Both the position numbers and the translations under genes were made by a program. Positions 11,822 to 38,523 of a stretch of DNA of 64,000 bases are shown here, one piece after another (position 1 is the first letter of the stretch; the number at the start of each line of letters is the position of its first letter). The notes under the pieces were generated by a model. It was given only the letters and a program-made list of their open reading frames with translations, did no database searches and was not told the origin of the DNA. Source of the stretch: Paramecium tetraurelia (Eukaryota); NCBI GenBank assembly GCA_000165425.1, contig CT868047.1, positions 62,001 to 126,000 of the forward strand, read 5' to 3'.

Positions 11822-12316
11822 TCAATAATTGGATTTTGAGGCTTAGATGAAATCTATTCTTCTCAACATTGAGCTAACTGTGTGTTCTAATTCTTGAATT
11901 TAGTGGTAATATTGGCCACTCAGATTTTAGATTTCTTTAGTACTCAATCCTGAGAGTGTTCGATTCACTTTAATTAAGTCAGCTGCATTCAAAGATGGTG
12001 TTTACAGCTTTCTTTACCTCATACTGTTTTGATCTTCTTTCCAAGTATTGGCGTCAAAAGAAACATAACTTTGTGATGTAGATCTGTCAAATTTCTTCCA
12101 ATCTGATAAGGATGCTAAGTGATGGTGTTATGATATGTCATGATCGACATGCAACTTCTTACTTTGTAATGGGCTCTAATTTAATGACATCAAATTTTTA
12201 TGATCCAAATGAAATGTTTTAGCAATTTATCTTTACTTATCTTCTGTTCCATCCATTTTAGCTTAAGCAGCTTTACGCACATAATTTCTAAACTCTTGCA
12301 ATTCTTAACGGTTCAT
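11822..12316 (-). CDS. Hypothetical 164-aa protein, divergent partner of the Ubl gene; 5' relics recur at ~31.9 kb and ~34.0 kb
   Basis: Intronless MNRQELQEFRNYVRKAAQAKMDGTEDK...ASKSNY-TGA. Confidence 0.7.
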
Positions 12317-12500
12317 ATTATTTGTATTTGTGTATGATAGATTGGAATGATTGTACATTTGAAGGATTTTATATAAAATAAAAATTTATTTATGAATAAA
12401 TATCTAAATATTGCTACTCCATTTAATGAGAAAGATTTAATAATATTATTTTTCAGAGACGTGAGTAGATATATCTATAGAAATAAAAAATTAATATATT

Positions 12501-12514
12501 CTACTCATATTTTG
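12501..12514 (+). promoter_or_regulatory. Candidate promoter motif TAYTCATATTTTG shared by three paralogous genes
   Basis: Same motif lies 20-31 nt before the ATGs at 12546, 31983 (31950-31962) and 34223 (34181-34193). Confidence 0.45.
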
Positions 12515-12545
12515 ATATCTTAGATTACAATATTAATAAATTAAT

Positions 12546-13793
12546 ATGAGTTCATAGAAAAAGGATTACAATATCACCCTTTCTTTCTTTGGAAAGTCAA
12601 CCTAAGTTACTATAGAAAAAAGTACTACAACCTTAGAACTTTACTAATTTTTAGAGGAAGCCTATCCATAGTATTCATCCATTGTATTATATTAGGGAGT
12701 TTGAAAAAGTAAAATACAAGAGTCTTAAATTCTTCTTGCCTGCTCAGAATAAATTTTTAAACATTAATCAGTCGACTTTAGAAACCGTTTTTGATAATTA
12801 CAACAATTATATAATGGAGTTGAAAGAAGATCTGCCTAGGAATGACTCTAATTGTTTTGCATCATCTAATGCAATTCCTAAAAAGCAAGTACAGACTGAA
12901 TAAGAGATCCAACAGAATTTCTAACCTTAAGACATCTAGCATTAATAGAATTAGTAAAATTAAATATATGCATAATAATGGGAATAACAATAATAACTCT
13001 ATAATTAGAATGTAATTTAAAACAACAATCAATAAAATTAATAATTCTAATATAATGATTAGACTCAATAACTGAATCAATAAGCATAAAATTAAGACTA
13101 TAATCAATAATAATTTTAATAATGGAGTATGCAATAAGATAATACAAATAATTAGAAGAATTAAAAAAAGTAAATTCAATATAATCATTTTTAGGACTCT
13201 CAGACTCCAATACAAAAATAATTAAATCCAATAAGTTGTTGATGAAACACTAACAGTAGATGAATTATATGCTCACTTTTATGATTAATTTAATATTGAA
13301 GGGGAAGTTAAATTGTTTTGGCAAGATTTGGAGTTATCTTGTTTGGAGCAATATGGAAGTATTTTTAACCAAGGAATTCAAAACGACTCCATAATTGAAT
13401 GCATAAGGTTTAATATTGATATAATTATTGAAATTTTTGATCGTCAGAGATAAGTGAGCCTCTAATAGAACAACCATTCATCTTTATCAACAATAAACGA
13501 AATCATATAAGTCATTTATATATACCTAGGGAAGACAGAGTACTTTATTTAATAATTCTAGAGAAACCATTAGTATAGAACTCTATCTCAGTAAAGACAA
13601 TTCTCCAATATAACAGCAGAATCAAAACAATTCATCAGCAACATAACTAAGTCAATCTTTTGAAAATGAATAACAAATAAGAGCCAATAAATATAATTGT
13701 ACCCTTAAAGAGTTGAATTTAATTGACAGCCCTCTAAAATTTAAGGCTAAAGTAAGGTATAATGGAGGATCAATAAAATCAATTTTAAATTGA
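12546..13793 (+). CDS. Protein with ubiquitin-like domains, Q/N-rich linker and C-terminal di-glycine (RYNGG + 7-aa tail)
   Basis: Introns 12671-12695, 13170-13194 and ~13540-13561. N-terminal domain shared with the 31983/34223 genes. Ubl-like TLTVDELY...VKLFW..LELS...GIQNDSIIEC. Ends KFKAKVRYNGGSIKSILN-TGA. Confidence 0.65.
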
Positions 13794-14448
13794 TTTTTTT
13801 CAAGTATTTTATTTGATAACAAAAAAAATCTATTTTAATTTCTGAAAGTCTTTAAAGCAATTATTGAACTGAGTCTTCATGATTTAATTAAGAACTTTTA
13901 GGGAATCTGCATACTCTTCAGAATTCAAATACTTAAGTTTGTAAAATCTTCATGAATCTGCTTTAAAAGTAAAATGGTTTTACTTGTTCCATTAAAATGC
14001 GTCAGTAAGTTCCATTATATGTATTATGCGTTGAATTAGCTGCATAAATTGTAAATCATACAAAATATCTGAAGTTGATGCTTGAAAATAAATTCCTGAA
14101 TTTGAAGTATGCAATCTATGAGATGGCTGCTCTAAAGCCACTCTGTTAAGAAGAAAGTATATAGGACTTATCTAAGAGTATCACCAGTGATGGCTCTCAA
14201 CTTAGAACTCTATTGAAAAGGGAGTTTAATTTTTTAAAGAAATCATTAACTTGAAGTTTTAATAATGCTCGAATAGCACTGGATAGGATTATTTAAACTT
14301 GAAATAATGGATTTCATTAGGAAATCATATGCTTCTGATTTCTCAGAATAAAAATTACAACCTATAAAGAGTTAACATATTTCTAATCTATTCTCACTTA
14401 TTCAAGCATGTGTTTAAAAATGAATATTATAATTAAAATTATTATCAT

Positions 14449-15790
14449 ATGATTCATAATTCGAATAGAAATCCAATCACAGATCCTTATTCTTTAGAGG
14501 ATCAATTAGCAAGAGAATTGCAAAAACGAAAAGTTGAAGAGGAGAAAAGGAGAAGAGAAATTGAAAGAATTTGCGCTGAGAGTGAGGAAATCAAACTACT
14601 TAAATAAAAAGTTTAGACTGCATATGTGACCAAAGAGAGAACTTAATAATTGGCTGAATAATAGTTGAGAAGAATTTAAGAGTTGGTATATATAGTCAGT
14701 TATATTTTCAAAATAGAAATAAGAAAGTGAAATAGAAGCAGCGATTCTTGAAAAGTTGAAAAGAGAACAAGAGGAAGAAAGATCCAAAGAGAAATTTAGA
14801 CTCCAATAAAGACTAGAGGGGAAATATGTATTTGAATTCATCATCATCAATAGACATTATAAAAATAAATGAAAGAACATGAGCAATTAAGAGATGAAGC
14901 TAGAGAATAATACATTTATGAGAAGGAACAAGTTAATAGAGTCATTCACTAATTAATTAATGAGGATCGCAAGTTTTTAGAGGATTAGGCAAAAAAGAAG
15001 AAAATTGCTTTCTCAGACATGTAAAATGCTTTAAGAGAAAAGGCAGAATTGATATTTAGAATGAAATAACGAGAAAGAGAGGAGAATCAGAAATATTTGG
15101 ATTTTATAAAAGAAAAGGATAGATAGGCTCATGAAATTAAGGTGAAAAAATAAGAAGAAAATGCAGCTAAGTATAAGTTTTTACAATTTCTTTAGAGATA
15201 AGATATTTCAAAAATTGAAGGAAGAGGAGGAAAGAAGAAGATAAGAAGCAGAATTATTGACTGAACTTAGATTTCAACTCTATCAAGAATAATATGATGC
15301 TTAGTAGAGATAAAAAGATATTGATGAAGCTAATAAGAGAGAATTTCAAAAAAGAGAGATGTAGTAGGCTGAACAAGAAGCAAGATTAAAAAAGTAAAGA
15401 TAGAAGGAGGAAGAATAATAGATGGAAAGAGATTTCAGAGATCAAATGATGAGAAAGTTTGCTGAAGATGATAAACTTGAATAATTAGGATAATAAAAAC
15501 GAAGAATGAAGGAAATAGAACATAAAAGAGAAGTTGAAAGATTATGGCAATAGAAATTGGAAATGTATTAAATGGAAAAGCAGAAAGAACTTGAATAACT
15601 AGAAAGATAAAGAAGAGAAGAGGCTTATAAATAATTAGTGGTAGAGGAGGAAAAAAATCGTATTCTTCAAGAACATTTACAATAAGTTGGAGAATTCATT
15701 CCAAAAGGACTCCTATTAAAATAAGGAGATTCTCAATTTATTAAGTAAGGATAATCAAATGCAAGTTATTAATCTGGTTTTAGAATATGA
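14449..15790 (+). CDS. MNS1: MNS1/CFAP127-like axonemal coiled-coil (TPH domain) protein
   Basis: ICAESEEIKLLKQKVQTAYVTKERTQQLAE, KFAEDDKLEQ, C-terminal HLQQVGEFIPKG match recalled MNS1 motifs. Confidence 0.8.
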
Positions 15791-15991
15791 AATTATAAAT
15801 TTTAAATATTTACAATATAAACATATAAGATTTTGTTAAAATAATCATTTTTATTACATTTTAATCTTCTTATATTGTAGATGTGATAAATTTATAATTT
15901 AATTGGAAAGTTAAAATTAGAGTAAATATTGTAGAAGAATATATGATTATGATAAAATCTAATAGATTTATTAAACATATCCTTTTCCAAC

Positions 15992-17560
15992 TCAACAAAG
16001 TATATTATAATCAAATTATTATATTAACATAGGACCAGAGCTTTATATTTAAAATTCGTTAATTTCAGGGATTTAATCATATCCTAGACCGTTGTTGTAG
16101 ATCATTGTTTTTTGAAGAGCTTTTTTGAGCATACCTTTAGAATAAATACTATAAATACTTAGATTTATGTAAAAGTGCTCTCTCTTGCTTTTTACGAAAG
16201 CAATTGCTTGATCTAAGGGAATTTGTAAGACAGATGCCAAATATATCACTGCAAGTGAGGGTGCTCTTCCAATTCCTGAAGTACAATGAATGTACACAAA
16301 TTCATACTGGTTAATTAGTTTTTTGAGAATTTATACTGCTTTAGTTATTTTTTTTTCAAAATCTTAGGGATCCATATCAAAGATTTCAAAGTTCTTCATA
16401 TAAATATTGTGTTTCTTATAACTAGCTAATATTTCATCCCAATCTACTCCTCGGTGATAGACATCCAATCTTGTTTGTAGATTTAGGACAGCTCTGATTC
16501 CATAGTTACTCAAGTTGATTATATCTTATTCATTTTATGGATAAGGACCTATAATAATGTTTTCATTTATTTGAGTGATGGAGAATTGAACAACGAAGTT
16601 CCAATCCAGTTTGTTCAGTCTTCCAAAGGACTCATAGTAAAAAAACGAAGGTTCCTTATCCGAAAATGAATAACCCATACTAGTTTCTTTGTTAGATTTT
16701 TGTTGCTTTTCTGAACAAAATGATCCATTTTTTTTATTGTGATGTCTCAAATGTTAACAGGCAGTCAACAATTGAGTTTTGATTTTGATTGGAGATTTGG
16801 CATACTGATCCTGAACTTATCGAAAGGATCTGAGATCGCTTGACTTCAAAAATCTTCCATTGCCTCTTTCCCATATCATTGAACCCGTGTCATCATTCCT
16901 AATGACGTAAAAATATCGGAATGAGAAATTCATTGAGTCTACGATGAAGGAGATGGACCATTGTTACACTGACTCCCCGTTTACTAATGTTACTGAATCA
17001 AAAATTACATATGTCTATTTTGGTTTATTATTTCATTAGTACTGGGTGAATCCATTAGCCCAATTACTCAATACTGCCTATAACCATCATTCTTTGTTTT
17101 TCAGGTAAGTTGTAATTTAATTTCAATTTAATTGTTCTATACCCCCAATATTCACCTTTAATAATTAATTATAGTAAATACAATTAAAATATTCAGACTT
17201 TGTCTCATTCTAAATCATATGGTTGGTGATTACTCTATTTTCTCCAGGTTCCCATAGTATATCATTCATAGTGGGATAATCGTAATTGTTAACTATGAAT
17301 TTGTACTCAATTTTGGAATATTTAGATCGATCTATTTTTATACATATTGTCCATTCATCATTCTTTTTTAAATATTATTCAAATAATACCTCATTCCATT
17401 ATAGTCGTAGTCCTTTAGTAGGAACCCAATTGCCAAGAATACTGCAATCTCCTACAATATAAATTGCTCTTCCAGGTTGAGTGTGATAATGAATTTTGAA
17501 ATACACCTTAAAATATGGTATTGGAAGCGTTGCAGTTGTAGATATTGATTGCTTTTTCAT
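15992..17560 (-). CDS. Laforin/SEX4-like glucan phosphatase with two CBM20 domains and a DSP domain
   Basis: CBM20-1 IYIVGDCSILGNW...EYKF...WEPGENR; CBM20-2 VIGSIEQLGQW...YFYVI...WERGNGR; DSP IIIGPYP, AVLNLQT, DMD, HCTSGIGRA. Confidence 0.85.
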
Positions 17561-18071
17561 TTAATATTTCTTTTGAAAATTAATTTATTATATAATCAAA
17601 ATCAATCTAGCTCTTCGTCGTAAAATCTAGAAAATTAAAGGAAATAGCTTAAACAATGTGTGGAGAATGTAAACCTTTAATTTCTAAAACAAGGAGTGGC
17701 TAGCTCCATATACTTGGAATTTTTAAATTTCTTCTTCAATTAAATCCTGAAATTAAGATTATATTTCATAACTCATTTTCATGATTCGTACTTAATTTGT
17801 TCCCTTAGTGATAATATATAATCTATTTTCATAATTATTAAATTCGAACTTTAATAAAGCATTTTATAAATTCCATCTTGTATAATATTCTTAAAATGTA
17901 ATTTCAAATAAGTAAATAATAAAGGCGATATCATTTCAAAACGAATAATAATCAAATAAACAAATGACTGATGTGTCGCAAAAAATAAAAATATTGTTCA
18001 TTAAAATATAAATTCTGATTTTTTAAGTAAGTACCTAAGATGAAGATATAAATCTAAATATTTATCATAAA

Positions 18072-19607
18072 TCATTCAGTTTTCAATCTTCCTTTAGTAG
18101 GTTAAAGAAATTCAATAATAGTATGAGGAGCTATTCTTTTATCAGGATCAATAGTAAGCATTTCTCGAAGTAAGAGTCTAATTTCTAAATCAACTTTAAT
18201 TCCTGTTAATAAGCAAAATAGCAATACCTGAATAATTATTGTCCAGATAATAGTCTAAATTTTTGACCACATGAATTTGTTTGTTTATAATTTAATCAAA
18301 AGCCCTATTCTTAACAGCAAATAAGCCTTGCTCAATTACTTCCTTATTGTGATGCTTTACAATGATTTTATTGTTCAACCAGAGAGGAATCCCATAAACA
18401 ATTTCTAAAATTACACAACCTAATGACCATATGTCTATAACCCAAGGTTTATAGTAATTTTGTAAGACTTTGAATAGTTTTACATCATAATCCTTGCCAT
18501 TTTCATAGAGGACGTAATTTAGGATTTCTGGAGACATATATTCAGGAGTCGCCATAGAGAACTGGGAGAGATCATCAAATATGAAACTACTCCCATAATC
18601 GATCAATTTGGTTTAGGTAATTTGATAAGATCCATTAAGACATTTAGATTTTTTAATGAGTATGTTTTCTGTTTTAAGATCGCAATGGACAATCCGTTAT
18701 TCAGTTAATAATATTAAAGCATGAGCGACATCTTTGATTATCCTCTTTAAAATATTGAGATCTTATTTTAAACTTATGTATAATGGTTTTTAGATCATCT
18801 TGAATATTGACATGATTAATTACTTTGTATACAATTTCATTTTTAATTTGTTATCCTTTCAACTCATACAGAGTATTTTTCAGATTCTCTCCACATACCT
18901 CTGTGAAAATCCAGGTATCAGTACTTCCGATTTCAAATCCCAAATATTATACTAGACTTTTGATTCCTAAGGTTGACTTGAGTTAAGGTTTTGGAATCCC
19001 ATTGTCAAAAAAATGAGATCCAAACCAAATTTCACGGAGGTAAGTTTGATTTGTGGTGGATTATTTAATTTATTTAATTGCAACCCTCATTTTGGTAGTT
19101 TTATGTTCTCCCAGCCAAACCAAGGAGAAGCCACCCTTCCCAAGAAGTTTAATCTTTTGAAACTGCAAAGGGAAATTATCAGGACCTGTATCATCCTCAA
19201 GGGAATGCTTCTGACTACTACTTTTCTGTCTTTTACTAGTGTTATTAAGAATATTGTTTTTTCTATCTGCACTTTTAGTAGATGTGAATGCATTGCTGAA
19301 TGATCTAGATTTAGATTATTTATTAGTAATGTAGGAGTCTAAATATAAGTAATCATCTAATGTGTCCATTCCTTATTCTGTTTTCTAAGTTAACCAATAT
19401 CATTACGAGTCTTTTGCTAACGGATTTCTTTTTGCTATTCATCATACTCACTATCGCTTCCTTTTCGAATTAATCAATTTTGCTAGATAACTATGGTCGT
19501 GGTCTGTCCTTCTTTGCTTTCTCAATCGAGCTCTAACGCATTTATGGCTTTGTTCTCCCATTGTGAGGACTCTGATTCTTCGTTTTAAAAAAACTATTAT
19601 AAAGCAT
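18072..19607 (-). CDS. Ser/Thr protein kinase (CMGC/DYRK-like)
   Basis: LGKGGFSLV, VAIK, HCDLKTEN, IDYG, TPEYMSPE, DIWSLGC, DPDKR. Start is approximate. Confidence 0.85.
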
Positions 19608-20904
19608 AAATTAATTAGAATTAAACCCATATTATTTCGTGGATGTTCTAACTATATAATTATTTATAATCAATTCATTCACAATAATTATGATGACTTT
19701 AAACGCTTCGACATGAATATAATGATATAACACTTCCCGACTGAAATATATTTTTATTTTCAACTCCCTTAGAATACATCAATGCCAGTAATAATCATAA
19801 TCCAGTTTGCTTCAAGCCCCACTAATCCAAGCCATCTCCAGTATTATCTACAGCCCGACAATCCACTACATCATGGATAGGCTTCAAGTAGTCCTGCATC
19901 AGTTTAGCACTCTAAGCCTTCTCCCTTTCATTACTGGCTGTATACAGAATCTTGGCATTCTAAATCTTGCTTATGATAAATTACTCATCAAAAAACTGTC
20001 TATTTTAAGTATAAAACCAATACTTTTGATTGAAATTCAAATTCTGAATGAATGTATGAATACTTGTCTTTGCCCATTAATATTTGAATTGATTTACCAA
20101 CACTTCCAGGCAATTTAACACATATTATTATCTTTATTTCATATGAAACTCTTTGTTATTATACTATAAATGAATAATATTACTAGAAACTATTCAAAAT
20201 CATACAGAATTTCATATTCATATGTTTCGATTTATTACAATGAGTTTTGTTATTCAATATCAACAAGTTCCAACATTTAGGCAGTATTTAAATCATCTAT
20301 AATTTTCTTGAATTCCTTCAGTGCGTTGTTAAATTAAAAGGTTTTAATATTCAATTGAATTTTTAGTATTTCTATAATTTAAATGTGCTTAGGAAGTTAA
20401 CAGAGTTCAAAAATTTCAATAACCAATTGATCACATTCATGTTACTTCAATTGATACTTTGTGATTGACAAACAATAAAGGATCTACAATAAATGATAAT
20501 CATAGAATTTGTTTTTAAATTCCTTAATTAGTAACTTAATTTTATTCAAAGCTGTGAATATTTTATTATCATTAGTTAGATATTTGAGTACTAAGCACAT
20601 AGCTTATTAGCAACTCATCTATTCTTTTTATGAACTCTCTTCTGCTTTCACTTTTTTGTTCTAATCTCCATAAATCTATTTCTCCACTTGATGCAATTGT
20701 TAACCCTACTTAACTTATTAATTTACTTTAGTCTTTTTGAAAAGTTGTTTGTCCAAAACTCTCTCTGCTTCCGTTCTGCAGTATTGCTCCCTATCAGTTC
20801 CTCATTTCGATTATTATTCTTATTCAAAAAATATATATTATAAACTTAGAGTAAAATAATCAAGCAAATTTAATAAAGATATAAATAATTTATTAGAATA
20901 ACAA

Positions 20905-25122: not shown

Positions 25123-26466
25123 TTTATTTAAATATATTTAAATTCTTTATAAAGTTTTAAAGAGCTTAAATTAATCAATCATTGTATCCGAACCCAATTA
25201 CGAAAAAATTGTTTCTATTTATATTTTGTTCAATTAAGAGAAAATTTTGAAATCAAGCTAAACAATAATCATACCTTAGCTAAATTATCTAAATTTACTA
25301 CATTTTTCCTAGTTATTACTTAATTAATCGTTAGAGACTTATCTAAGTATCACCAGTTGAAATATTTATGAGGAACTTCCTAATAATTTACTGAACGGAA
25401 TCTTTCCATTTTTTTAATCATTGCTTCTCAAAATCTACTCGTTATCTTTATTAAAATAACAAATCCCCACTAATATTTTCTATTATTTATCCTCATCATC
25501 TAATATATAATTTCTGATTCTTATATTTGAAAATTATATTAATGGAAAAATTACTATTTTCTTAATTCCCTACATTAAATCGTCTTCCTTATATAGATCA
25601 AGCAAATTACAACAGAATATTGACACATCAGCACCTGCTAATGTGGTAGATAAAATGCATTATCATTAGTTTATCATTGATCTTTATCTGCAATCAATAG
25701 GAATAATTACTTGCTTTGAAGTCAAGACTTATAATTGAGAAAACTTCCATTCCCTTCTTATTTATTGTATTACTACTCTCTATTCATTTTGATTCTGAAA
25801 AAGTCACTCATTCCATAATATGCCGGTAGGACATTAAATTTGATGGTAAGCAAAACGAATTTTTAATTCATATATTTATTGAACTTTAATTATCACCTTC
25901 TTATTATAAGATTATAATATATTCTCAGCTTAATATATAATAGCACTAACAAAAAATACATATCTATCTTTTTATCCAATAAGAACTGTAAATGTATGGA
26001 TTGGTCTAATGAGAGATAAATAAGTAATAAGCTAAAAATAATATAAATTCTGTTTTACCCTAAAAATCAAAGTTCTCCTTAAAGGATCGATCGAAATATA
26101 CCTAGTTTGTGTGAAGTGTAATTGTCTATGAGAATCACATGTCTATTCAATTAATAAATATTCTAAATTAAGATTAATTATATCTATTGTCCTATACTAT
26201 AGAACTAATGATTTTTTATATTAATTTATTGTTAGGTAATTTTAAAAGTCATAAGTTAAGTTTACGTTAATTAAATTGATATGATAAAGTAAAAATAATT
26301 TGACTAATTTGACTAAGCATTTCTAATTACTTTTAATGTTGGAATTGTTCAATACACAACGAAATTGGATATAAATTAAAATTGCATTTCATAATAAAAT
26401 CATAGATTTAGAATTAATAGTCAATTGTAAAGAATATATTGATACTTATAATAGAGGATTTAATAA

Positions 26467-27598
26467 TCAAATAATTTTAATTTCACTCAAGTCTAACCAA
26501 ACAATAAATATAATATCGGTTAAGGTAACTTTCATTGTATATGAGGAGTTGGTTTTCAAATTTAAAAAGGTCAGTTGTCCTTATGAATAAGTGCAGAGAA
26601 CTATGATAATGATTGAAATTCAATATACTTTTATCCCCATCTTAAAATGAAATACCTTTGTCCTTTCCTTAAACAGCCCCATTTTCAATTTCACTATGGT
26701 AAATACATTTGTCATTAAAATTCATGTACACGCCATGGCCAACTGTTTAGAGCTACTCTCCAGTAAGGATCAATCCATTTTTTTCAATAGATACTCGTTC
26801 CATAGCTCCTATACCTATTCCTACATAGTCACTCTATATCTTAATGATCTCAAATCTAATTTGAGTGCCCTCTTTGAGTAATTGGTTGGTCATGACGAAG
26901 GAAGGATCTTAAATGGTATGGTATTAATACATCCTTCTAAGTGTTTTGCTTTTTGATTGACGATTTCAAATTTGGTAAGTTAATCATAGGCTTGTGGCAT
27001 TTTTATGAATTGTGGTTTCTCAGTGATGGCGATTGGGATTGCTGCAGTTTGAATTTGGGATATTTTCTTTTTTGGTGATTGAACTTATTGGACAGGTTAA
27101 ATTGATTCTTATTTTGTATCTGCACTAATTAAATGAAATAAATCATCCAATTCTTTTTGAATTTGAATTTGTAATTCACAATATTAAGCAGTCTGCAATT
27201 CTAGGGTTTCTGAAATGTTATTGGGCAGTGCTTTGACTATTAAATCTATTGCCCGTTCATTTAATAAGGAGTATTCGGAATTGATAAATTTGGATGCTGC
27301 CTCAATCAATTCATATTTTTCACATTTCCTTTATTTTAAATATTTGTGATTCATACTTCTGATAAATTTCTTATTTCTTCTGCAAGTATTCCGAAATAAT
27401 TTGAAATTTAGATTCAATAATTTGTTTGGTGCTTGCAGTGATTGGGAATTCAGGTATGACATCTTTCAATTTCTTGGTGAGTTATCCCAGACTGGAGGAA
27501 CTATGGCCTTTGTGATAATCGAGTTCCTTTATGGATTAAATTAATCGGGATTATGCTTGACAATTCGGGGCTATACAAATTCGAGTCGAGGGTATCAT
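26467..27598 (-). CDS. Hypothetical protein (N-terminal Cys/His motif, coiled coil, possibly SPRY-like C-terminus)
   Basis: MIPSTRICIAPNCQAQSRLI...HKGH; C-terminal beta-rich region (YVGIGI, ISFQDGD). 3' end approximate. Confidence 0.5.
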
Positions 27599-27624
27599 AA
27601 TTAATTAATAATAATTCGATAATA

Positions 27625-28340
27625 ATGAATAGTAGCTCAAAAATCCGAAAGGGGTCTCGCAATATGAAGTAGAACAATCCAACTTAATCAATAGGTACAA
27701 GAAAATCAGTCACGACCAAAGAACTCACATAATAAACGAACTTACTAAAAATGGAAAGACCCTAAAAGAAGTAGATTTAAGAACCATATGACTGTAGGTA
27801 TCCGAAGATACTCAATTGAAACCATCAACTGTGAAGGCAATTCTATAGGTCTATTTGAAGGAGGGCAGAATAGGGAAAAAATCCACCAGGGATAGAAAAG
27901 TCAAATTACTCAACACTACAGTGATCGCATTAATAGACAAAACTAAGTAATTTTCTATTTTTAACCTAATTTCAAATAGAAATAGCGAATATGCTATCGA
28001 AAACTTATAGTTCATCCACCCTCTGATTCGCATAAATTAGCAATCTTCTGAGATTTCTCATAATGGTTAAACACTCACTGAGACTCAATAGAATCTAGAT
28101 TAGTATTCGAAATAGCTTGTGATGATGCAAGTCAAGGATTTCCTACGAGAAAAGAAATCAGAAATAGTGGACTAGTTGGCTAACCCTTTGGCTAAATAAA
28201 ATTTCCTAAATTAGTTAGCCTAATTTGAAGTGAGTGAGCAATTGCCATTTCAAGAATTAAAGAAAGAGTAATTGTCTGCTGAAGATGAATCGTTTTTAGA
28301 GAAGATAACATATCATTTAAAATCGAAAGTAAAAATCTGA
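27625..28340 (+). CDS. Helix-turn-helix (Tc1/paired-like) DNA-binding protein
   Basis: After two tiny introns: YKKISHDQRTHIINELTKNGKTLKEVSEDTQLKPSTVKAILQVYLKEGRIGKK. Confidence 0.7.
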
Positions 28341-28629
28341 TATAAATAAATAAATAATATTTTTATTAAGATCATAATAAGTTAATTTTTTCAACCTTTG
28401 CATCTTCAATGACATTGATTTCTGCATTCTAATTAGAAATGAGTAAAGAATCTAGGTAATTTTCACAATTTTTTCCATTTTTTCCATATTTTACTTTGTC
28501 TATAAATGTAATAACCAATAAAATTGATTGAAATAATTTAATTTATCAAGATATTTCTGTCAAAATAGTAATCACCTTGAATTTCAGAAGAATATTCTAG
28601 TATATTACTTTTTTCAAAATCGATAATCG

Positions 28630-31480
28630 ATGAATTATAGATGATTTTTATATTTGGATCGAGATCATTAATTTATTTATTATGATTTTATAATATCATA
28701 TTCCTAAAGAGTATTGTTTAATTATCAATATTTTTTTGTTACAAATACTACCTTTCATTTGAGGTATCCTAAGGAATATTAGGAATCCTTTTGGGTAAAT
28801 CTGAATAAGTGAAAATCTTTTATTTACAATTATTCTTAATAATTCGATTTTTCAAAATCAATTGGAGAGTAAAAGTAATCGAAAGCGATGGTAAAAAATA
28901 TTCAATTCCTAATCAGAATGAAGATCCTTCTATAATATTTCCAAATAAAAACATTTATTATTTATGTTAAAATTAATTCAGCCAATACTTGATTGTACAT
29001 TTTATATGACTTTTGGAATTTACTTTTCAGGTCAAACGAATTATGAGCAATGTTATCGAATATTTGCATTAAGTAAATACCATCTTATACAATTAGTTGC
29101 TAGTCTATACTACATACTTTTCTTTCTTCCTTATAAATTCAACAAGATCAACCTAAGTTCTAGATTAGTGTCAATTTGTACGGGAGGTATTGGCATAATC
29201 AGCTTCATTCTGAGTGTGTTTCTCAGTTATGAAGATGCATTTTTTGCTCGTTGCTATTGGACAACACTTGCAATAAGTACTGTAATTGGCACATACTTGG
29301 TTAAAACAAAAATGAAATCAGAGTGAATTAATAATAAATAATTATATACATCTACATTTTCTAACTGAAATTAAATCCTAAAGAGAAGCCTTAAGTCAGA
29401 TCGTTTTAGGAGATTGGAGTAGAGTCAATAAGAATAATCCTCATTTTCGAAGCATTAGTATAAGAGTATTATTCCTGAATTTTGTGATTTTGTTACTAAT
29501 TATTCTTTAATTGATAATTTTAGAGTCAATTTTGTATATTCAAATATTAAGAAGATTATAATACCTGAAGCTTTGTCTAAAATCAAACTTTAGACTATTT
29601 TGTTATAACATAATAGTGATATAATTGAAAGAAATTAAATGTGTGTGAAATATTTTCTTGAGATAATAACATATCAATTACCAATAAATTCTACTAAAAT
29701 TTTATCAGATATCAAATAAATTTATGATGCTCTTTATTTTGGTTGATTTTAAATCCAAAGAAATAATGATGAAAATCAACAAATTATCTACCATAAGGAA
29801 TTAGAATAAATATATTATAAATTCATATATCTAAGATTGATAAATTAAATTGAACTAGCTTGCAGGTCTATAGTATAATAGATTATTATATATGCATTGA
29901 AATATCTTCTAAATTTTAAATGTGAACAAATTTAATTATACAATCAAGATACTTGGATTATTCAATTTCATATTGATTACAATTTTTAAATATGCTATTT
30001 TGATTAAATGTGATAATCAAAGAGTTGAACTCTCAATCTTAAAATTTATAGTAGTCCTAAGCGAATATATTGTTTTATATTTTGTATTTGAAAATCATCC
30101 ATTCTATAAACTTCACTATTACATAACTATGTTAGTATTGTTAAAGGAGTACCTCAAGGTATGAAAAGATATAAGCTAATTTATAGAAATGGAAACAGCT
30201 GTTAAAATAGAATAGAGATTATTAAGGTTCAGAGAATTTTAATAGACAACGTATTAAAACGATTTCTTTATTCGTGAATTTAATCTAAGGTTTATAGGGT
30301 TGCTTACAATATTTAGCATATTATTTGATTCAATAGATAAGAATGAGGAAATAACAGAAATTGTGTTGCCAATTGCAAACAAAAAATGTAGAAGATTATT
30401 CAAAAAATGATGAACAAAGTTAGATGAATTCATTTTAAGTTAAATCTAGTATAAAAATTAAATAATTATAGATTATTGATATTGGTTTTATGATTCATCA
30501 CAAAAGCAATGCATTTATAGTTTACTCTATTTTTTTCATTTGATCTTCTATATAATTTAAATCCTCTTCATTTATCTCGAATGTATGAAATTTATAAGTT
30601 TTATTCACGACATCTTTAGACTATAGCACATTTTTAGATGTATTACCTTAAGATTCATAATGCAAACAGGTTTATTTATGTTTTTTGCTTTTTTTGAGTA
30701 GAATTGGTTATTAACTGACCACTGAAATTTTTCAATCTAATATTCATTGTATTAATAATTACTTTTTATCCTTGGGTCCTCTTTTTTATGTAATAGGATA
30801 ACACTCTATCTTTCTCAGTTAACCATGTCTAGTGTAATTCTTAGGGTGAGATTCCCTAAAACAAATATAATGATTTCATACATATTGCTCATAGGTTTGC
30901 TCTGAATCATTTTAGATGAGATCATCGATCAACTATTGGAAAATATCTACATTTTGAGAAAATGTTTCTTCATTGTAATTTCCTGACTCTTTCAGATATT
31001 CCTTCAGTTAATCAAGAGTAATTTCCTCTTAATTGTCTGTATATTTCATTATTAAGACACCACGAAATATTGGTTTCATTATAATTTTAATAATTCAGTT
31101 TATCTTAATTAAATCACTTTTCTGTTTATATTGTGAAAGAACTTGATATAAGTACATTCATTATGTGATGAGCATTGATATTATTGGAAATCAAAATAGT
31201 CTCTCATAAATCAAAATTTTAGTATTCGCCTTTTTTCAAAATTTGTTTATAGCCATGATAACTACGATAATTTCAGAACAGTCATATAGCATTTATGGAA
31301 ATTATGTCCCTCCTTAAAGTATACAAATGATAATAAATAAACAAAGAGAACCTGAAATTAAAGGATGCATATCTTGAATAATAAATTTTTAATTCTATTA
31401 AGGAGGAATAAGAGATCATTGAATAGATTTCTTAATCAGATGAAATAAAAAATTTAGATTATTGGAAATCTATAAAATGA
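28630..31480 (+). pseudogene. Decayed large multi-pass membrane protein gene
   Basis: Hydrophobic coding-like stretches (28964-29326, 29922-30164) with in-frame TGA at 29324, 29366 and 29744, and frame changes downstream. Ends approximate. Confidence 0.55.
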
Positions 31481-31828
31481 AAGCATGTTTCAATTAAGAC
31501 ATGTCTTTAATTCAATATTTCAATTGAATTATAAATTCTTATTTATACTAATAAATAGATCAATGGTAATTAAATCATAATAAATTTAGTTAAATTAATT
31601 TGTCGTTTAGTTTTCGTAATCATTATAGAATATAAACTAATAAGAAATTATTATTTTTAATTTGTTAAAATGCTATAATTTTTAATTTAGCATACATTTC
31701 TCATAATGTAAAGATCAAATATAGCCTACCAAGGAACTTGATCGTCAAAGATTATCTATAGCATAAAACATATCATTGAGAAACAAATAAAAACTATCCC
31801 AAAAAAGGTATAATCAGATTAGCCTTCT

Positions 31829-31930
31829 CAAAATTTTTGTTTTCCAAATGAGAAATTTAGAAATCTATGTTTACTTATTATCTGTTCTATACATTTTAAC
31901 CTCTACTGATTAAAGTATGTAATCTCTAAA
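31829..31930 (-). pseudogene. Relic of the 5' part of the 11822-12316 gene
   Basis: Alignable by eye to 12191-12291 (caaattttt...caaatga...ttag...acttat...ctgtt...ctaaa). Confidence 0.6.
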
Positions 31931-31982
31931 GTATAAAATTAAAACGGGCTATTCATATTTTGTTAAATATTAATTTATTGAT

Positions 31983-33675
31983 ATGATGTTTCCAGAATAT
32001 TATGAAATCGACATTTCTTGCTTTGAGGTAAAATCTTAAACTTCTTTAGCCTAAAATACCTCTACTTTAGACCTTTTTGAATTGTTAACAATAAAATTTC
32101 TAAAGTATTCAGAACTTTAATTAATTTTAGCATGTTAGGAAATAGCAAGGATTATAAATTTTTCTTACCCACTTTGAATAAATATGTAAGCATTAATGGA
32201 ACGACATTAAACAGAATTTTGGGAAATAATAAAAAATGTGTATTTGAATTGAAGCAAATTCTTAAATACCTAATAGATATATTAATAGATAATAACGAAT
32301 TATTTATTTTAGACGGTAAGACTTATAACCAACAAGTGAATAAACTTTAAATGAATAAAAAAAGTTGTTTCAGAACTGAAAGATTAATTTGAGAAAAAGG
32401 AAATTTTTATATAACACTTGTTATTAGTTTGTTAATAAATATATTTATAATAAGAAATTCGTTCAAAATCAGTTGAGGAATAAATTGATATATTAAATAA
32501 AGAACTTAAATAATTAGATAATAATAAGAATCTTACAAATAATTAAAAATAGTATCTTTAACATTAATATTAATAATAACTAATTACAAAATTAAAAGAT
32601 TATGGCAAAACTAAATCAATCCCTCATGTGAATTAGAATATTGATGTCTCAAATCCTGAATTGGCACTTTTTGTTTTAAAAGAATCATTATTGAGAGACA
32701 AAATCTAGAATTATTAGTAACAAGTAAAAAATATTCCTTTGGATTTGATTCAATAATTGGATATTATGGCTAAGATTAATCTTGTTTAAAAATAAGAAAT
32801 ACAAATCTTGATTATGATAAAATTGTTAATGATTAACAATTATTGTAATAACATTTATTAGAATTTAAGTAAAAGCTATCAAGTTCACTCAATATTTCAA
32901 CTGATTAAATTGAAATTTTAGGAGTATCAAAGGGTAACTTTGAAATTAGCTTTAATATTTTAGGAAATGATATGAAATCGATTTCATAATAGATTTAAAA
33001 TAATCCAGAAGCAAAGAAATTCTTAAATGAGTATTGTAATGGAAATGTAGAATATGTAGCATACTTTGATCAAGCAAATATCTAATCAAAGGGAGTCACT
33101 CTTTCTTTTGATGATTTTAATCCTTCACACAATATGAGTTTGGATAATTATCAAGAAAAAAAGAATAGAGAGGGCCTCCTTATCATAGATATGATTATTA
33201 TTTTCCAATAGGTTGTTATGGATTTGGGTTAAATGTAGAAAAGTAAGTAAAATAATATGGAAATGATTGGTTAAAAACGGATGGTAATCCTAATGAATGG
33301 AGAATTATGTATTATGGTACCAAGTAAGCTGCTGTTAATCAAATTTTGAGAAATAATTTAATTGCAGGTGGAGCATAAGATTACTAAAATACTGAATGTA
33401 TTGATGAATTTGGAAATAAAGTTAAAGTAGGACGTGGAATTTATTTTTCAAATAATATTAAGGTCTGTATTGATTATCGATATACTAATTACACTTAGAT
33501 TGGTAATAAATAATTTGCAGCTATTTTAATGACAAGAGTAAGCCGAAAAAAAATTAAATAAAGTGAAGGTATGAAATTGTTAAATTATTTCGTTGTTAAT
33601 AATTCAAAAGATGTGAGACCATATAGACTCTTATTGCATGAAAAACTAAAAGAAGGATATTGTTTTTAATTTTGA
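31983..33675 (+). pseudogene. N-terminal Ubl-like domain + PARP-like ADP-ribosyltransferase (NEURL4/Gig2-like), copy A; frameshifted as given
   Basis: RGPPYHRYDYYFPIGCYGFGLNV...EWRIMYYGT...GRGIYFS...YFVVNNSKDVRPYRLL, ends CFQF-TGA. Frameshifts in A7 runs at 32357-32363 and 33156-33162. Confidence 0.75.
33291..33449 (+). repeat. 159-bp exact duplicate of 35046-35204 within the tandem ART genes
   Basis: Base-by-base identical by eye; sequence 3' of it diverges abruptly. Confidence 0.85.
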
Positions 33676-33924
33676 AAAGGAATTAAATTAATATATATCT
33701 ATAAGTAATTTTAATAATACCATCTATCAACACTAACATTAAAATTTGTTATTTAAATAGGAAAGCAAGATTAAATATTAGAAGATTGATTGAGCACAAA
33801 TCTCTCAAATTGTAAAATCCAAATAGCTCTGCCAACAGACATGATTAACAAAGATAGTCAATAGCATAAAACAAATCGTAGAGAAATCTCAGCATTTTAA
33901 AAATATATTTTCGAGTAAACTCCT

Positions 33925-34222
33925 CAAAATTTTGTTAAGCAAATGAAAAGTTTTAGATATTATCTTAACTTATCTTTCTGTTCCATACATTTAACCGTGG
34001 CAGCTTTATGTACATAATCTCTAAATTCTTACTATTCATAACTGTTAATATTATTTGAATCATTGTACCTATGAAGGATTTTCTACAAAATAACATTTTA
34101 TTTATATATAAATATCTAAAAATGCTGTTCCATTTAATTCGAGAAAAATATAAAACAATGTAAAATATTTAATATAGGCTTATTCATATTTTGTTAAAAT
34201 ATTAATAATTTAATAGAATTCG
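33925..34222. repeat. Diverged copy of 12191-12545 (5' relic of the hypothetical gene plus the bidirectional spacer)
   Basis: attgtacctatgaaggattttctacaaaataacattttatttat...tatctaaaaatgctgttccatttaat versus attgtacatttgaaggattttatataaaataaaaatttatttat...tatctaaatattgctactccatttaat. Confidence 0.8.
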
Positions 34223-35399
34223 ATGCAACAATATTATAAAATCAAAATTATTTTAGTTGGGAAAACAAAGCCACTTGTGTTAGAAAAATAAGACACAACC
34301 TTGAAAGTTTTCTAAATTTTATAAGCAGAAGAAGAGTATTTATAATAGTAATTAATATTAGGAATGTAGAAAATTTACAAAAAGAAGAAATTTGAATTTC
34401 TTCGTTCCAGTTTTGAATAGATTTGTCAACATTGATGAAACAAAATTAGAATACATTTTGGAAAATACGGAAAGCTGGTCATTTGAATTGAAGGAAGATC
34501 AATCATAGAAAAAGCAAACTAATAAATACAGTTGAATTGACAAAAGTATTAATACTGATTAGATATATTAATAAATAATATTAGCTACTTAATTATTTTT
34601 ACAGTAAGGTTTAAATTCATCAATTAAATTAATAATAACATTTATTAGAATTTGAGTAAAAGCTATCAATTTCACTCAATATTTCAATTAATTAAATCGA
34701 AATTAATTTTTAAATTATAGGAACTGATATGAAATCGACTTCATTATATATTTAAAATAATCCAGAAGCAAAGAAATTCTTAAATGAGTCTTGTAATGGA
34801 AAAGTAGAATATGTAGCATACTTTGATCAAACAAATAGCTAACCAAATGGAGTCACTCTTTCTTTTGATGATTTTGATCCTTCACAAAATATGGGTTTAG
34901 ATGGTTTTCGTTAGAAAGTATAGAGAGGGCCTCCTTATCATAGATTTGAGTATTATTTTCCAATAGGTTGCTATGGATTTGGGTTAAATGTAGATAAGTA
35001 TGTAAAATAATATGGAAATGATTGGTTAAAAAAGGATGGTAATCTTAATGAATGGAGAATTATGTATTATGGTACCAAGTAAGCTGCTGTTAATCAAATT
35101 TTGAGAAATAATTTAATTGCAGGTGGAGCATAAGATTACTAAAATACTGAATGTATTGATGAATTTGGAAATAAAGTTAAAGTAGGACGTGGAATTTATT
35201 TTTCTGATAGATTATCAGTTTCCAAAGGATATAAAAACCCTGTTTAGACAGGAAATAAGAAATTTAGTGTTTATTTCATGTCTAGGGTAAATCCCAGAAA
35301 ATTAGATAAAGTGAGAGCGTGAAATCGATTTATTATTTTGTTGTTAATTAATCAGAAGATTTTAGACCATATAGAATTCTAATTTAGGAAATCAAATGA
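34223..35399 (+). pseudogene. N-terminal Ubl-like domain + PARP-like ADP-ribosyltransferase, copy B; frameshifted and internally deleted
   Basis: Same phase-2 first intron (34336-34361). FFVPVLNRFVNIDETKLEYILEN...FELKED. ART motifs YYGT, GRGIYFS, YFVVNQSEDFRPYRIL. Frameshift at 35298-35301 gives TGA at 35320. Confidence 0.75.

Positions 35400-35693: not shown

Positions 35694-38523
<2,830 letters not shown>

What the first reader, a model, noticed from the sequence alone, without database searches (positions are those of the whole stretch)
12191..35399. One promoter/first-exon cassette reused three times to drive Ubl-GG and ADP-ribosyltransferase effectors
Seen: genes at 12546, 31983 and 34223 share an N-terminal domain (KFFLPAQNKFLNINQSTLETVF..ELKED / KFFLPTLNKYVSINGTTLNRIL..ELK / NFFVPVLNRFVNIDETKLEYIL..ELKED). 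They also share a phase-2 first intron at the equivalent place, a TAYTCATATTTTG motif, and upstream DNA homologous to the 5' end of the 11822-12316 gene. The C-termini differ: Ubl-like domains ending RYNGG in one, PARP-like ART domains in two. Established: Ubl modifiers and mono-ARTs are fast-turnover defence/stress effectors in animals (ISG15, PARPs, fish Gig2). Inference: a modular, co-regulated protein-modification or defence family built by domain shuffling and undergoing birth-and-death evolution.
Basis: partly seen in the sequence, partly recalled or inferred. Interest (0 to 1): 0.75.

Follow-up and report, generated by a model that had tools for sequence, protein, structure and literature searches.

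The report
Duplicated promoter-plus-Ubl fragment beside decayed PARP genes
A 640-base piece of a Paramecium gene (its promoter region and first ubiquitin-like domain) was copied next to a PARP-like gene and then duplicated again, but both PARP-like copies are now broken, so this looks like ordinary gene birth and decay rather than a working family of modular defence effectors.

Summary
Three + strand genes (ATG 12546, 31983, 34223) share an ~85-residue N-terminal domain, a phase-2 first intron, the motif TAYTCATATTTTG, and upstream DNA matching the 5' end of the minus-strand gene 12316-11822. All of this is far above AT-bias controls.

- **Gene A** (Paramecium tetraurelia, 391 aa) is intact. 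It is a triple ubiquitin-fold protein ending RYNGG plus 7 residues, and two homologues keep the same build and the GG.
- **The shared N-domain** is itself a ubiquitin fold, the first of gene A's three.
- **Copies B and C** are one ~640-bp 5' fragment of the N/A gene pair, placed at the start codon of a PARP-like gene and then tandemly duplicated with it.
- **The PARP-like parts are decayed.** B reads in four frames. C lacks its first ~150 codons and has a frameshift. Both carry Tyr for the NAD-binding His, and neither forms one ORF with the N-domain.
- **No family elsewhere.** A profile search of 1.84 billion proteins found the N-domain in only five proteins, none with an intact ART. Seven ART homologues lack it.

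Best reading: a chimeric gene made by partial duplication, now decaying. The more interesting object is gene A, a candidate conjugatable tri-Ubl.

The parts
11822..12316 (-). Gene N: 164-aa ORF, head-to-head with gene A. Its first ~127 bp (12190-12316) belong to the duplicated segment.
   Evidence: Translation. Only a weak Pfam hit (Prefoldin_3, E 0.0012, 19.3 bits, below cut-off). tblastn of its residues 1-35 finds the relic upstream of C.
12317..12545 (.). 229-bp intergenic region between genes N and A, presumed to be a bidirectional promoter. Holds TACTCATATTTTG at 12502-12514.
   Evidence: Homologous to C 34041-34222 and partly to B. Motif. Promoter function is inferred, not tested.
12546..13793 (+). 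Gene A (= P0011, 391 aa). Exons 12546-12670, 12696-13169, 13195-13539, 13562-13793; three phase-2 introns. Layout: Ubl1 (residues ~7-86), Q/N-rich linker, Ubl2 (~203-247, low confidence), Ubl3 (~273-381), then NGG + SIKSILN.
   Evidence: Spliced model is identical to P0011. AF2 domains. In Foldseek, 36 PDB hits at E<=0.001; the listed ones are ubiquitin, SUMO, ISG15, USP7-UBL and other beta-grasp chains. Atlas neighbours. Homologues P0014 and P0015.
12190..12833 (+). Source segment of the duplication (~640 bp): 5' end of gene N, intergenic region, A exon 1, intron 1 and the first ~46 codons of exon 2 (Ubl1, through ELKED).
   Evidence: blastn blocks, three-way alignment, Markov control.
31682..33675 (+). 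Tandem unit B: flank shared only with C (31682-31830), gene-N relic (31831-31930), promoter block with motif at 31950, N-domain, linker and the full-length but frameshifted PARP-like ORF.
31983..32392 (+). B N-domain ORF: exon 1 31983-32104, intron 32105-32130, exon 2 from 32131, first in-frame TGA at 32390 (127 aa). Runs in frame into the ART ATG at 32351.
   Evidence: P0013 is the annotated form; it goes on through a 19-nt GTTGTT...GAAAG 'intron' at 32364-32382.
32351..33675 (+). B PARP-like pseudogene. ATG 32351, then frame changes in the A-run at ~32355-32363, at ~32687-32702 and at ~33153-33169. MYYGT at 33307-33321 (Tyr codon TAT 33313-33315 where homologues have His). GIYFS at 33436-33450. 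YFVVNN from 33586. Stop at 33673-33675.
   Evidence: tblastn of P0004 residues 8-419 falls in three frames. Sequence read. B/C alignment. Motif coordinates.
33786..35399 (+). Tandem unit C: flank shared with B (33786-33921), gene-N relic (33916-34049, minus strand, no ATG, frameshifted), promoter block with motif at 34181, N-domain minigene, and a 5'-truncated PARP-like relic.
34223..34535 (+). C N-domain minigene (= P0012, 92 aa): exon 1 34223-34335, intron 34336-34369, exon 2 34370-34535 (TGA at 34533).
   Evidence: Model is identical to P0012. Stop position.
34633..35399 (+). C PARP-like relic. Corresponds to P0004 residues ~150-420 only. Has a 1-nt gap relative to B at 35294, so its frame ends at TGA 35320 while the homologous C-terminus continues in another frame to TGA 35397. 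MYYGT at 35062-35076.
   Evidence: P0001 (197 aa) is its annotated fragment.
33246..33450 (+). Tract almost identical to C 35001-35205. Identity drops to about 60% just beyond it. Probably recent gene conversion between B and C.
   Evidence: Alignment. The chimeric protein P0002 switches from B-type to C-type exactly here.

Best explanation
Gene A is the parent. It is an intact Paramecium gene for a protein with three ubiquitin-fold domains and a C-terminal Gly-Gly followed by a short tail. It is transcribed divergently from gene N across a 229-bp shared intergenic region.

A ~640-bp piece of this gene pair was copied about 19 kb downstream. The piece holds the first 127 bp of gene N, the whole intergenic region, and A's exon 1, intron 1 and Ubl1-coding start of exon 2, possibly with ~25 linker codons. 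It landed directly in front of, and in frame with, the start codon of a PARP-like mono-ART-type gene. That gene belongs to a family which otherwise has no such domain. The result was a chimeric gene (A's promoter and Ubl1 in front of the ART).

The whole composite unit (~2.1 kb) then duplicated in tandem to give B and C. Later the ART halves exchanged sequence by gene conversion, while both copies decayed through frameshifts, a ~500-bp loss in C and loss of the catalytic His. What remains are two short N-domain ORFs (127 and 92 aa) behind copied promoter DNA, each followed by an ART pseudogene.

Shown: the homology, the breakpoints, the frame disruptions, the His-to-Tyr change, the absence of the architecture elsewhere, and the Ubl fold of A.

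Inferred: the order of events, that the intergenic region is the promoter, that the fusion was once translated as one protein, and that A is a conjugatable modifier.
For: - **Parentage.** A-type architecture (N-domain, Q-rich linker, two Ubl domains, GG) is found in 3 of 3 non-window-duplicate hits (P0011, P0014, P0015). The 7 ART homologues outside this locus carry no N-domain, and none was hit by the N-domain profile.
- **Single origin of B and C.** Both share the same left breakpoint against A (A 12190 and 12192). They also share ~130-140 bp further upstream that A lacks (B 31682-31930 matches C 33786-34025). Synonymous distance is smaller for B-C (0.37) than for A-B (0.70) or A-C (0.81).
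- **Junction at the ART start.** The ART homologue P0004 aligns from residue 8 at 32412. The ATG at 32351 lies in the same frame as the N-domain exon 2, with no stop between them.
- **Decay.** B's ART matches P0004 residues 8-419 across three frames, plus an A-run shift just after the ATG. C matches only residues 150-403 and then 379-420 in another frame. B/C indels of 2 and 1 nt are seen.
- **Catalytic site.** The window copies read MYYGT, against [YF]HG[TI] in 7 of 7 other homologues. That His aligns with the His of the HGT/HGS motif in PARP3 and PARP1 chains.
- **No splice rescue.** No GTA...TAG intron of normal size can join the N-domain to the ART frame: 0 of 5 candidates in C and 0 of 6 in B are canonical.
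- **Relaxed constraint.** N-domain dN/dS is 0.77 (A-B), 0.63 (A-C) and 1.73 (B-C).
- **Gene conversion.** A near-identical tract (33246-33450 = 35001-35205) has a sharp edge.
- **Ubl fold of A.** AF2 gives pLDDT 71-86 over residues 11-80 and 66-85 over 271-330 and 351-380 (10-residue block means). Foldseek returns 36 PDB hits at E<=0.001, the listed ones being ubiquitin-like folds, with SUMO chain 3v61_A at TM 0.74 and rmsd 2.9 over 83 columns. Atlas structure neighbours are ubiquitin, UBX and YukD families.
Against: - **Signs of retained function in the N-domains.** Both B and C keep an ATG, GTA...TAG splice sites, the intron phase and only in-frame gaps relative to A. The block around the motif upstream of the ATG is conserved. 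This fits continued or long-lasting selection on the short N-domain ORFs.
- **Timing tension.** The protein tree puts B and C outside the A+P0014 pair (bootstrap 86; B+C only 53), suggesting an old split. Yet upstream non-coding DNA is still 73-75% identical. Accelerated evolution of B and C or long-branch effects could explain this, but I did not resolve it.
- **Noisy rates.** The dN/dS values rest on about 46-48 synonymous sites.
- **Possible assembly errors.** Two of B's frame changes lie at or near A-runs. The only cross-check is P0002 from a second small contig, whose model also has to jump frames there, and that contig may share reads.
- **Weak PARP call.** Pfam PARP scores for the window copies are below the curated cut-off, and the AF2 model of the ART domain was too poor to use.
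- **Untested.** Nothing here tests transcription.
Confidence: 0.68

Rival explanations
1. One reading: a functional, co-regulated modular family in which one promoter/first-exon cassette drives different protein-modification effectors (a Ubl-GG protein and ADP-ribosyltransferases) that work in defence or stress.
For: The three cassettes are real and keep the promoter block, start codon, intron and reading frame. In B the N-domain ORF runs in frame into the ART start codon. The public annotation P0013 models B as the N-domain fused to the ART gene's coiled-coil part.
Against: Only 5 proteins among 1.84 billion representatives carry the N-domain, and none has an intact ART. 7 of 7 other ART homologues lack it. 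The ART parts are frameshifted or truncated and lack the catalytic His. P0013 needs a 19-nt GTTGTT...GAAAG intron and then runs on in a wrong frame.
Confidence: 0.08
2. The short N-domain ORFs of B and C (127 and 92 aa, one ubiquitin-fold domain without GG) are themselves working genes. They would be stand-alone Ubl-domain proteins expressed from copies of A's promoter, and the ART sequence behind them is irrelevant wreckage.
For: Start codon, splice sites, phase and in-frame-only gaps are preserved across about 80 codons, even though the sequences differ at more than 60% of residues. The upstream block with the motif is conserved. Both are annotated as proteins (P0012, P0013).
Against: B-C dN/dS is 1.73, and A-B and A-C are 0.6-0.8, so there is no sign of purifying selection. 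With TGA as the only stop codon in 75% A+T DNA, an 80-codon open frame is weak evidence. Annotated proteins here come from gene prediction, and no expression data were available.
Confidence: 0.17
3. The frameshifts are assembly or sequencing errors (several lie at A-runs), and B is in truth an intact Ubl1-coiled-coil-PARP fusion gene.
For: The shifts at ~32355-32363 and ~33153-33169 lie in or beside runs of A. Removing the single-base shifts would give one long ORF colinear with P0004.
Against: There are three independent shifts in B and one in C, and the one at ~32690 is not in a long homopolymer. C also has a ~500-bp deletion and a stop after the N-domain. The His-to-Tyr change is a substitution, not an indel. 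P0002, from a second contig, needs the same frame jump. G+C of the B ART (0.235) is below that of neighbouring genes (0.29-0.31).
Confidence: 0.07

Closest known systems
ISG15 and FAT10 (tandem ubiquitin-like modifiers of animals)
   Same: Gene A has several ubiquitin-fold domains in one chain and ends in Gly-Gly followed by a short tail that would need trimming. The GG is kept in 3 of 3 family members. An ISG15 chain (3rt3_B) is among the Foldseek hits. The ISG15/FAT10 properties cited here are recalled from general knowledge.
   Different: There are three domains rather than two, with a ~110-residue Q/N-rich linker. There is no detectable sequence similarity: no Pfam ubiquitin hit at E<=10 and no PDB sequence hit at E<=10. 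The family was seen in only 3 representatives. Conjugation, an E1/E2 pathway and induction are all untested.
Chimeric genes formed by partial (5') gene duplication, e.g. the Drosophila tandem-duplication chimeras
   Same: The parent's promoter and first exon(s) were copied and joined to another gene's body, followed by tandem duplication and rapid decay. The Drosophila papers (PMC5460883, PMC4069613) were seen only as search listings and abstracts.
   Different: Here the copied piece also carries the 5' end of the divergent neighbour gene, so a whole bidirectional promoter moved. The junction sits at the recipient's start codon. The products are now broken.
Catalytically dead PARP domains (PARP13/ZAP, PARP9) and ciliate 'clade 3D'-type PARP-like proteins
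   Same: The PARP catalytic-domain signature is present: the HG[TS] and GxGIYF[SA] motifs of homologue P0005 align to PARP3 and PARP1. Pfam PF00644 matches 6 of 9 family members at E<=0.01, best 34 bits. An NNS[EK] motif follows the third triad position, like the H/NNSK motif that Citarelli et al. describe for four Tetrahymena proteins (PMC2964712, passages read). Loss of the His as in PARP13 and PARP9 is recalled knowledge.
   Different: That paper places no Paramecium protein in its clade 3, so this family lies outside its survey. The third triad residue appears to be Tyr, by my reading of the alignment, not Glu. The two window copies are pseudogenes, not regulated inactive domains.
PB1 domain
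   Same: UniRef names P0011 'PB1 domain-containing protein'. PB1 is also a beta-grasp fold (recalled).
   Different: There is no Pfam PB1 hit at E<=10. Foldseek and Atlas neighbours are ubiquitin, SUMO, UBX and YukD, not PB1.

Membership tests
Ubiquitin-like (beta-grasp) fold | beta-beta-alpha-beta-beta-(3-10)-beta topology, with structural similarity to ubiquitin or SUMO | tested here: met
   AF2 of P0011 gives strands 7-14, 17-24, 52-56, 61-63 and 79-86 with helix 29-39, at pLDDT 71-86 (10-residue block means, residues 11-80). It gives the same pattern for residues 273-381. The middle domain (203-247) is below pLDDT 50. Foldseek: 36 PDB hits at E<=0.001, the listed ones being Ub, SUMO, ISG15, USP7-UBL or other beta-grasp chains. 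Atlas structure neighbours have TM 0.68-0.78 for residues 1-90.
Ubiquitin family by sequence (Pfam PF00240 / PF11976) | Match to the family profile | tested here: not met
   No ubiquitin-family Pfam hit for P0011 at E<=10 or for its exon pieces at E<=1. No PDB sequence hit at E<=10.
Conjugatable Ubl modifier (ubiquitin, SUMO, NEDD8, ISG15, FAT10 type) | C-terminal Gly-Gly just after the last strand, exposed directly or after removal of a short tail | tested here: met
   P0011 ends ...KVRYNGG+SIKSILN, P0014 ...RIRYHGG+SNKGILN and P0015 ...KVMYSGG+Q. In the model the last strand (373-381) ends two residues before the GG.
Conjugatable Ubl modifier (ubiquitin, SUMO, NEDD8, ISG15, FAT10 type) | Activation by an E1 and covalent attachment to substrates | not testable with these tools
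   Needs biochemistry or proteomics.
PARP catalytic domain (PF00644) | Profile match at or above the curated cut-off (26.7 bits) | tested here: inconclusive
   The window copies score 25.5 bits (C) and 18.0 bits (B), both below the cut-off. Homologue P0005 scores 34 bits. 6 of 9 family members match at E<=0.01. The only 3 PDB sequence hits at E<=10 are PARP3 and PARP1. The AF2 model of the domain was unusable (pLDDT <50).
Active PARP / mono-ART | H-Y-[E/I/L/Y] triad with the NAD-binding His | tested here: not met
   B and C read MYYGT (TAT at 33313-33315 and 35068-35070). 7 of 7 other homologues have His there, aligned to the His of PARP3 and PARP1. The Tyr of GIYFS is present.
Active PARP / mono-ART | Uninterrupted coding sequence | tested here: not met
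   B needs four frames. C is 5'-truncated and frameshifted.
   The profile search of 1,835,955,588 representatives gave 5 hits at E<=0.001: three of one architecture, plus B and C of this window. A word-based search of residues 1-90 among proteins of 215-685 aa found only P0011 itself. Unannotated genomic copies could not be searched.
Chimeric gene from partial duplication | Identifiable parent with full structure, a recipient family lacking the segment, shared breakpoints, and non-coding flank copied along | tested here: met
   The copied gene-N fragment has no ATG and is frameshifted.

The most novel reading that the evidence does not exclude
Gene A and its two homologues define a Paramecium-restricted, conjugatable triple-Ubl modifier: an ISG15/FAT10-like system that arose independently in ciliates. 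Its bidirectional promoter plus first Ubl domain was captured by a PARP-like gene, so that for a time the cell made a Ubl-tagged ADP-ribosyltransferase under the same control. The surviving 92- and 127-aa N-domain ORFs would still be expressed with A as free Ubl-domain proteins.
Probability: 0.12. Interest if true: 0.6.

Novelty: new member of a known kind. Interest (0 to 1): 0.3.

Why it matters
As a family of modular defence effectors it would have been notable, but the evidence points to an ordinary process: a partial duplication made a chimeric gene that then duplicated, underwent gene conversion and decayed.

It is still a tidy, datable example for Paramecium. A whole bidirectional promoter moved together with a first exon and intron, which is useful for anyone studying promoter content or new-gene birth in a genome with very short intergenic regions.

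The part worth following up is gene A. It is an orphan three-domain ubiquitin-fold protein with a conserved GG-plus-tail end, invisible to sequence profiles, and could be a lineage-specific protein modifier.

Tried and rejected
- **Pfam on gene A.** Exon pieces at E<=1 and the whole protein at E<=10 gave no Ubl or PB1 hit. phmmer against PDB gave nothing at E<=10. The Ubl assignment therefore rests on predicted structure.
- **Word-based homologue searches.** A exon 3 (longer proteins) and A residues 1-90 each found only P0011 itself.
- **Internal repeat test.** The N-domain profile against Ubl2 and Ubl3 of the A family gave only insignificant second stretches (3.7 bits or less). I make no claim that Ubl1 arose by internal duplication.
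- **ART-family profile against PDB sequences.** The only hit was a coiled-coil chance match (CENP-Q, E 0.12).
- **AF2 of ART homologue P0005** with a 9-row alignment. Mean pLDDT was 45.9 and the ART domain was below 50. Its Foldseek search gave 0 hits at E<=0.001, only weak ferredoxin-like matches to the middle domain. I did not use it for the PARP call.
- **Block-wise identity with free end gaps.** The shuffle control was meaningless (shuffled identity about equal to observed), so I discarded it.
- **Search for an intron joining the N-domain to the ART.** No canonical candidate was found.
The species and names of P0014 and P0015, and cluster sizes, therefore stay unknown.
- **Literature.** Three searches found nothing on this gene family. 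Only PMC2964712 was read, as passages.
- **Not used or not possible.** Genome contigs holds bacteria and archaea only. No eukaryotic genome DNA or RNA-seq was available, so loci of homologues and expression stay unchecked.
- **Considered and rejected: a mobile element as carrier.** There are only three copies in 64 kb, all with gene-derived content, and no terminal repeats were looked for beyond blastn.
- **Considered and rejected: A acquired its 5' end from B/C.** P0014 and P0015 already have the full A architecture.

Full report
**What the window is.** The sequence is about 70-76% A+T. Read with the ciliate code, it encodes proteins identical to annotated Paramecium tetraurelia macronuclear proteins on a 224,907-bp contig. 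All gene models below use table 6 and the short GTA...TAG introns typical of Paramecium.

**Checking the observation.**
- Gene A: I built its model from the sequence (exons 12546-12670, 12696-13169, 13195-13539, 13562-13793). Its translation is identical to database protein P0011, 391 aa.
- Genes B and C: the 5' parts are B exon 1 31983-32104, intron 32105-32130, exon 2 from 32131; and C exon 1 34223-34335, intron 34336-34369, exon 2 from 34370. They are identical to the first 118 residues of P0013 and to all 92 residues of P0012.
- Protein similarity: the three N-terminal domains align with scores of 119, 147 and 101. Shuffle maxima were 53-59, so 0 of 1000 shuffles per pair reached the observed score (z 15-20).
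- Introns: all three first introns are phase 2 and fall in the same alignment column.
- DNA similarity: the homology runs from A 12190 to about 12833. That span covers the first 127 bp of the minus-strand gene N (12316-11822), the 229-bp intergenic region, exon 1, intron 1 and the first ~46 codons of exon 2. HSPs score 129, 103, 85 and 69 bits. A first-order Markov model of the AT-richest 8 kb gave best scores of 33.4 +/- 3.6 bits (maximum 42.6) in 50 simulations, so AT bias does not explain the matches.
- Motif: TAYTCATATTTTG occurs exactly three times, each 33-44 nt before one of the ATGs. Allowing one mismatch the count (5 against 1.77 expected; 4 of 100 shuffles reach 5) is not impressive on its own, but the motif lies in a larger conserved block.

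**What gene A is.** Sequence profiles are blind to it. There is no Pfam hit at E<=10 and no PDB sequence hit, although UniRef labels it 'PB1 domain-containing'.

An N-domain profile, built from A plus the exon pieces of B and C (alignment A2), was run against 1,835,955,588 representative proteins. It returned five proteins at E<=0.001:
- P0011 (gene A);
- P0012 and P0013 (the annotated forms of C and B);
- P0014 (353 aa) and P0015 (437 aa).

P0014 and P0015 align with A end to end: N-domain, Q/N-rich linker, two further conserved blocks, and a C-terminus of RIRYHGG+SNKGILN and KVMYSGG+Q against A's KVRYNGG+SIKSILN.

AlphaFold2 with this small alignment gave an overall poor model (mean pLDDT 53.8) but two well-formed beta-grasp domains. 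One covers residues 7-86 (block-mean pLDDT 71-86 over residues 11-80). The other covers residues 273-381 (block-mean pLDDT 66-85 outside an inserted loop). A third, low-confidence beta-beta-alpha-beta-beta unit lies at 203-247.

Foldseek against the PDB gave 36 hits at E<=0.001. The listed ones are ubiquitin chains, SUMO, ISG15, USP7 UBL domains and other beta-grasp proteins; SUMO chain 3v61_A has TM 0.74 and rmsd 2.9 over 83 columns. The ESM Atlas neighbours agree.

So gene A is a triple ubiquitin-fold protein with a conserved GG-plus-tail end, and the 'shared N-terminal domain' is simply its first Ubl domain. Whether it is conjugated is inference from the GG. Nothing here tests it.

**What B and C are.** The PARP-like region of C was searched among proteins of 151-482 aa. 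It found ten proteins: the annotated fragments of C and B (P0001, P0010), a B/C chimera from a 2,072-bp contig (P0002), and seven homologues from P. tetraurelia, primaurelia, pentaurelia, octaurelia and sonneborni (P0003-P0009, 310-436 aa).

*Family assignment.* Pfam PARP (PF00644) matches 6 of 9 family members at E<=0.01, best 34 bits. The window copies score 25.5 and 18.0 bits, under the 26.7 cut-off. The only three PDB sequence hits at E<=10 are PARP3 and PARP1, aligned through HGT and GKGIYFS. The family is thus PARP-like. By my reading of the alignment the triad is H-Y-Y, and an NNS[EK] motif after the third position recalls the H/NNSK motif reported for four Tetrahymena PARP-like proteins (PMC2964712, passages).

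*Architecture of the homologues.* As annotated, six of the seven homologues begin with a coiled-coil region and P0003 starts further in. None has the N-domain, and none was hit by the N-domain profile.

*State of the window copies.* Mapping the homologues back onto the window shows:
- B is colinear with P0004 residues 8-419, but in three different frames, with shifts near 32687-32702 and 33153-33169.
- The likely ancestral ART start, ATG 32351, is followed by a run of seven A after which the frame changes again.
- C matches only P0004 residues ~150-403, then 379-420 in another frame.
- The B/C DNA alignment shows indels of 30, 2, 6 and 1 nt.
- Both copies read MYYGT where all seven other homologues have His.
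- The N-domain reading frames end at TGA 32390 (B, 127 aa) and TGA 34533 (C, 92 aa).
- None of the 6 (B) or 5 (C) GT...AG candidates that could carry the frame into the ART is a canonical Paramecium intron. The one used in annotation P0013 is a 19-nt GTTGTT...GAAAG.

B and C are therefore not intact Ubl-ART effectors. Each is an N-domain stub followed by an ART pseudogene.

**How it probably arose.**
- B and C share the same left breakpoint relative to A (A 12190/12192). They also share a further ~130-140 bp upstream that A lacks (B 31682-31930 matches C 33786-34025).
- Their synonymous distance (0.37) is smaller than either has to A (0.70, 0.81).

That fits one copying event from A, followed by tandem duplication of a ~2.1-kb composite unit.

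In B the copied segment runs without a stop, and in frame, into the ART's own ATG. The fusion may therefore once have been translated as Ubl1-linker-ART. This is inference: the frame would agree by chance one time in three.

The copied fragment of gene N has lost its ATG and is frameshifted, as expected for a passenger.

The ART halves of B and C are far more alike (86% overall, nearly identical over 33246-33450 = 35001-35205, then about 60%) than the cassette halves (63-69%). This points to recent gene conversion. The chimeric protein P0002 switches from B-type to C-type at the edge of that tract.

N-domain dN/dS values (0.77, 0.63, 1.73) show no purifying selection on B and C, though they rest on few sites.

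Between A and B lie unrelated genes: a TPH-domain ORF, a CBM20+DSP phosphatase and a protein kinase. This is a dispersed copy, not a local array with A.

**What argues the other way.**
- The N-domain ORFs of B and C keep their start codon, splice sites, intron phase and only in-frame gaps. The promoter-proximal block is conserved. So selection on these stubs, now or for a long time after the duplication, cannot be excluded.
- The protein tree groups A with P0014 (bootstrap 86) and leaves B and C outside on long branches. This sits uneasily with 73-75% identity in non-coding upstream DNA. Fast evolution of B and C is the simplest reconciliation, but I did not resolve it.
- Two of B's frameshifts are at A-runs and could in principle be assembly errors. 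The second contig behind P0002 needs the same frame jump, but it may not be independent.

**What could not be checked.**
- Expression.
- The genomic loci of P0014, P0015 and the ART orthologues.
- Names and species of P0014 and P0015.

**Verdict.** It reflects one partial duplication that created a chimeric gene, its tandem duplication, gene conversion and decay. It is not a modular, co-regulated effector family. Gene A, a sequence-orphan triple-Ubl protein with a conserved GG end, is the piece that merits an experiment.

Noticed in passing
window 33246-33450 and 35001-35205; protein P0002: B and C are nearly identical over this tract and drop to about 60% identity just after it. P0002, annotated on a separate 2,072-bp P. 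tetraurelia contig, is B-type up to GRGIYFS and C-type afterwards. It is either a real recombinant/deletion form or a collapsed assembly of the tandem repeat.
   Followed up: partly
window 15995-17935, minus strand: A CBM20 starch-binding domain (ORF 17126-17935, E 3.6e-18) lies upstream of a dual-specificity phosphatase domain (ORF 15995-17032, E 4.8e-16). This looks like a laforin-like glucan phosphatase gene. The 'laforin-like' label is recalled.
   Followed up: no
window 15146-15787 (+) and 18193-19399 (-): There is a trichohyalin-plectin-homology domain ORF (E 1.6e-28) and a protein kinase split over two ORFs (E 4.9e-20 and 1.5e-5). These are ordinary unrelated genes between A and B.
   Followed up: no
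window 12546-13793 (gene A): All three introns of gene A are phase 2 (exon lengths 125, 474 and 345 nt) and 22-25 nt long.
   Followed up: no
window 32364-32382: The public model P0013 bridges the frame change after ATG 32351 with a 19-nt GTTGTT...GAAAG intron. It then runs on in a wrong frame past the next frameshift. This is probably a gene-prediction artefact.
   Followed up: partly
protein P0005 residues 94-183 (equivalent to window ~32760-33050 in B): The region between the coiled coil and the PARP-like domain is predicted as a beta-alpha-beta-beta-alpha-beta unit (10-residue block-mean pLDDT 63-82 over residues 91-180). It has no PDB match at E<=0.001, only weak ferredoxin-like resemblances.
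   Followed up: partly
N-domain tree (A, P0014, P0015, B, C): Gene A's N-domain sits on a much shorter branch (0.13) than its closest homologue P0014 (0.64). B and C have branches of 0.9-1.2.
   Followed up: no
window 28000-36000: This stretch has the lowest G+C of the window (0.23-0.25, against 0.29-0.36 in gene-dense parts). The B ART itself is 0.235. This is consistent with non-coding or decaying sequence.
   Followed up: no
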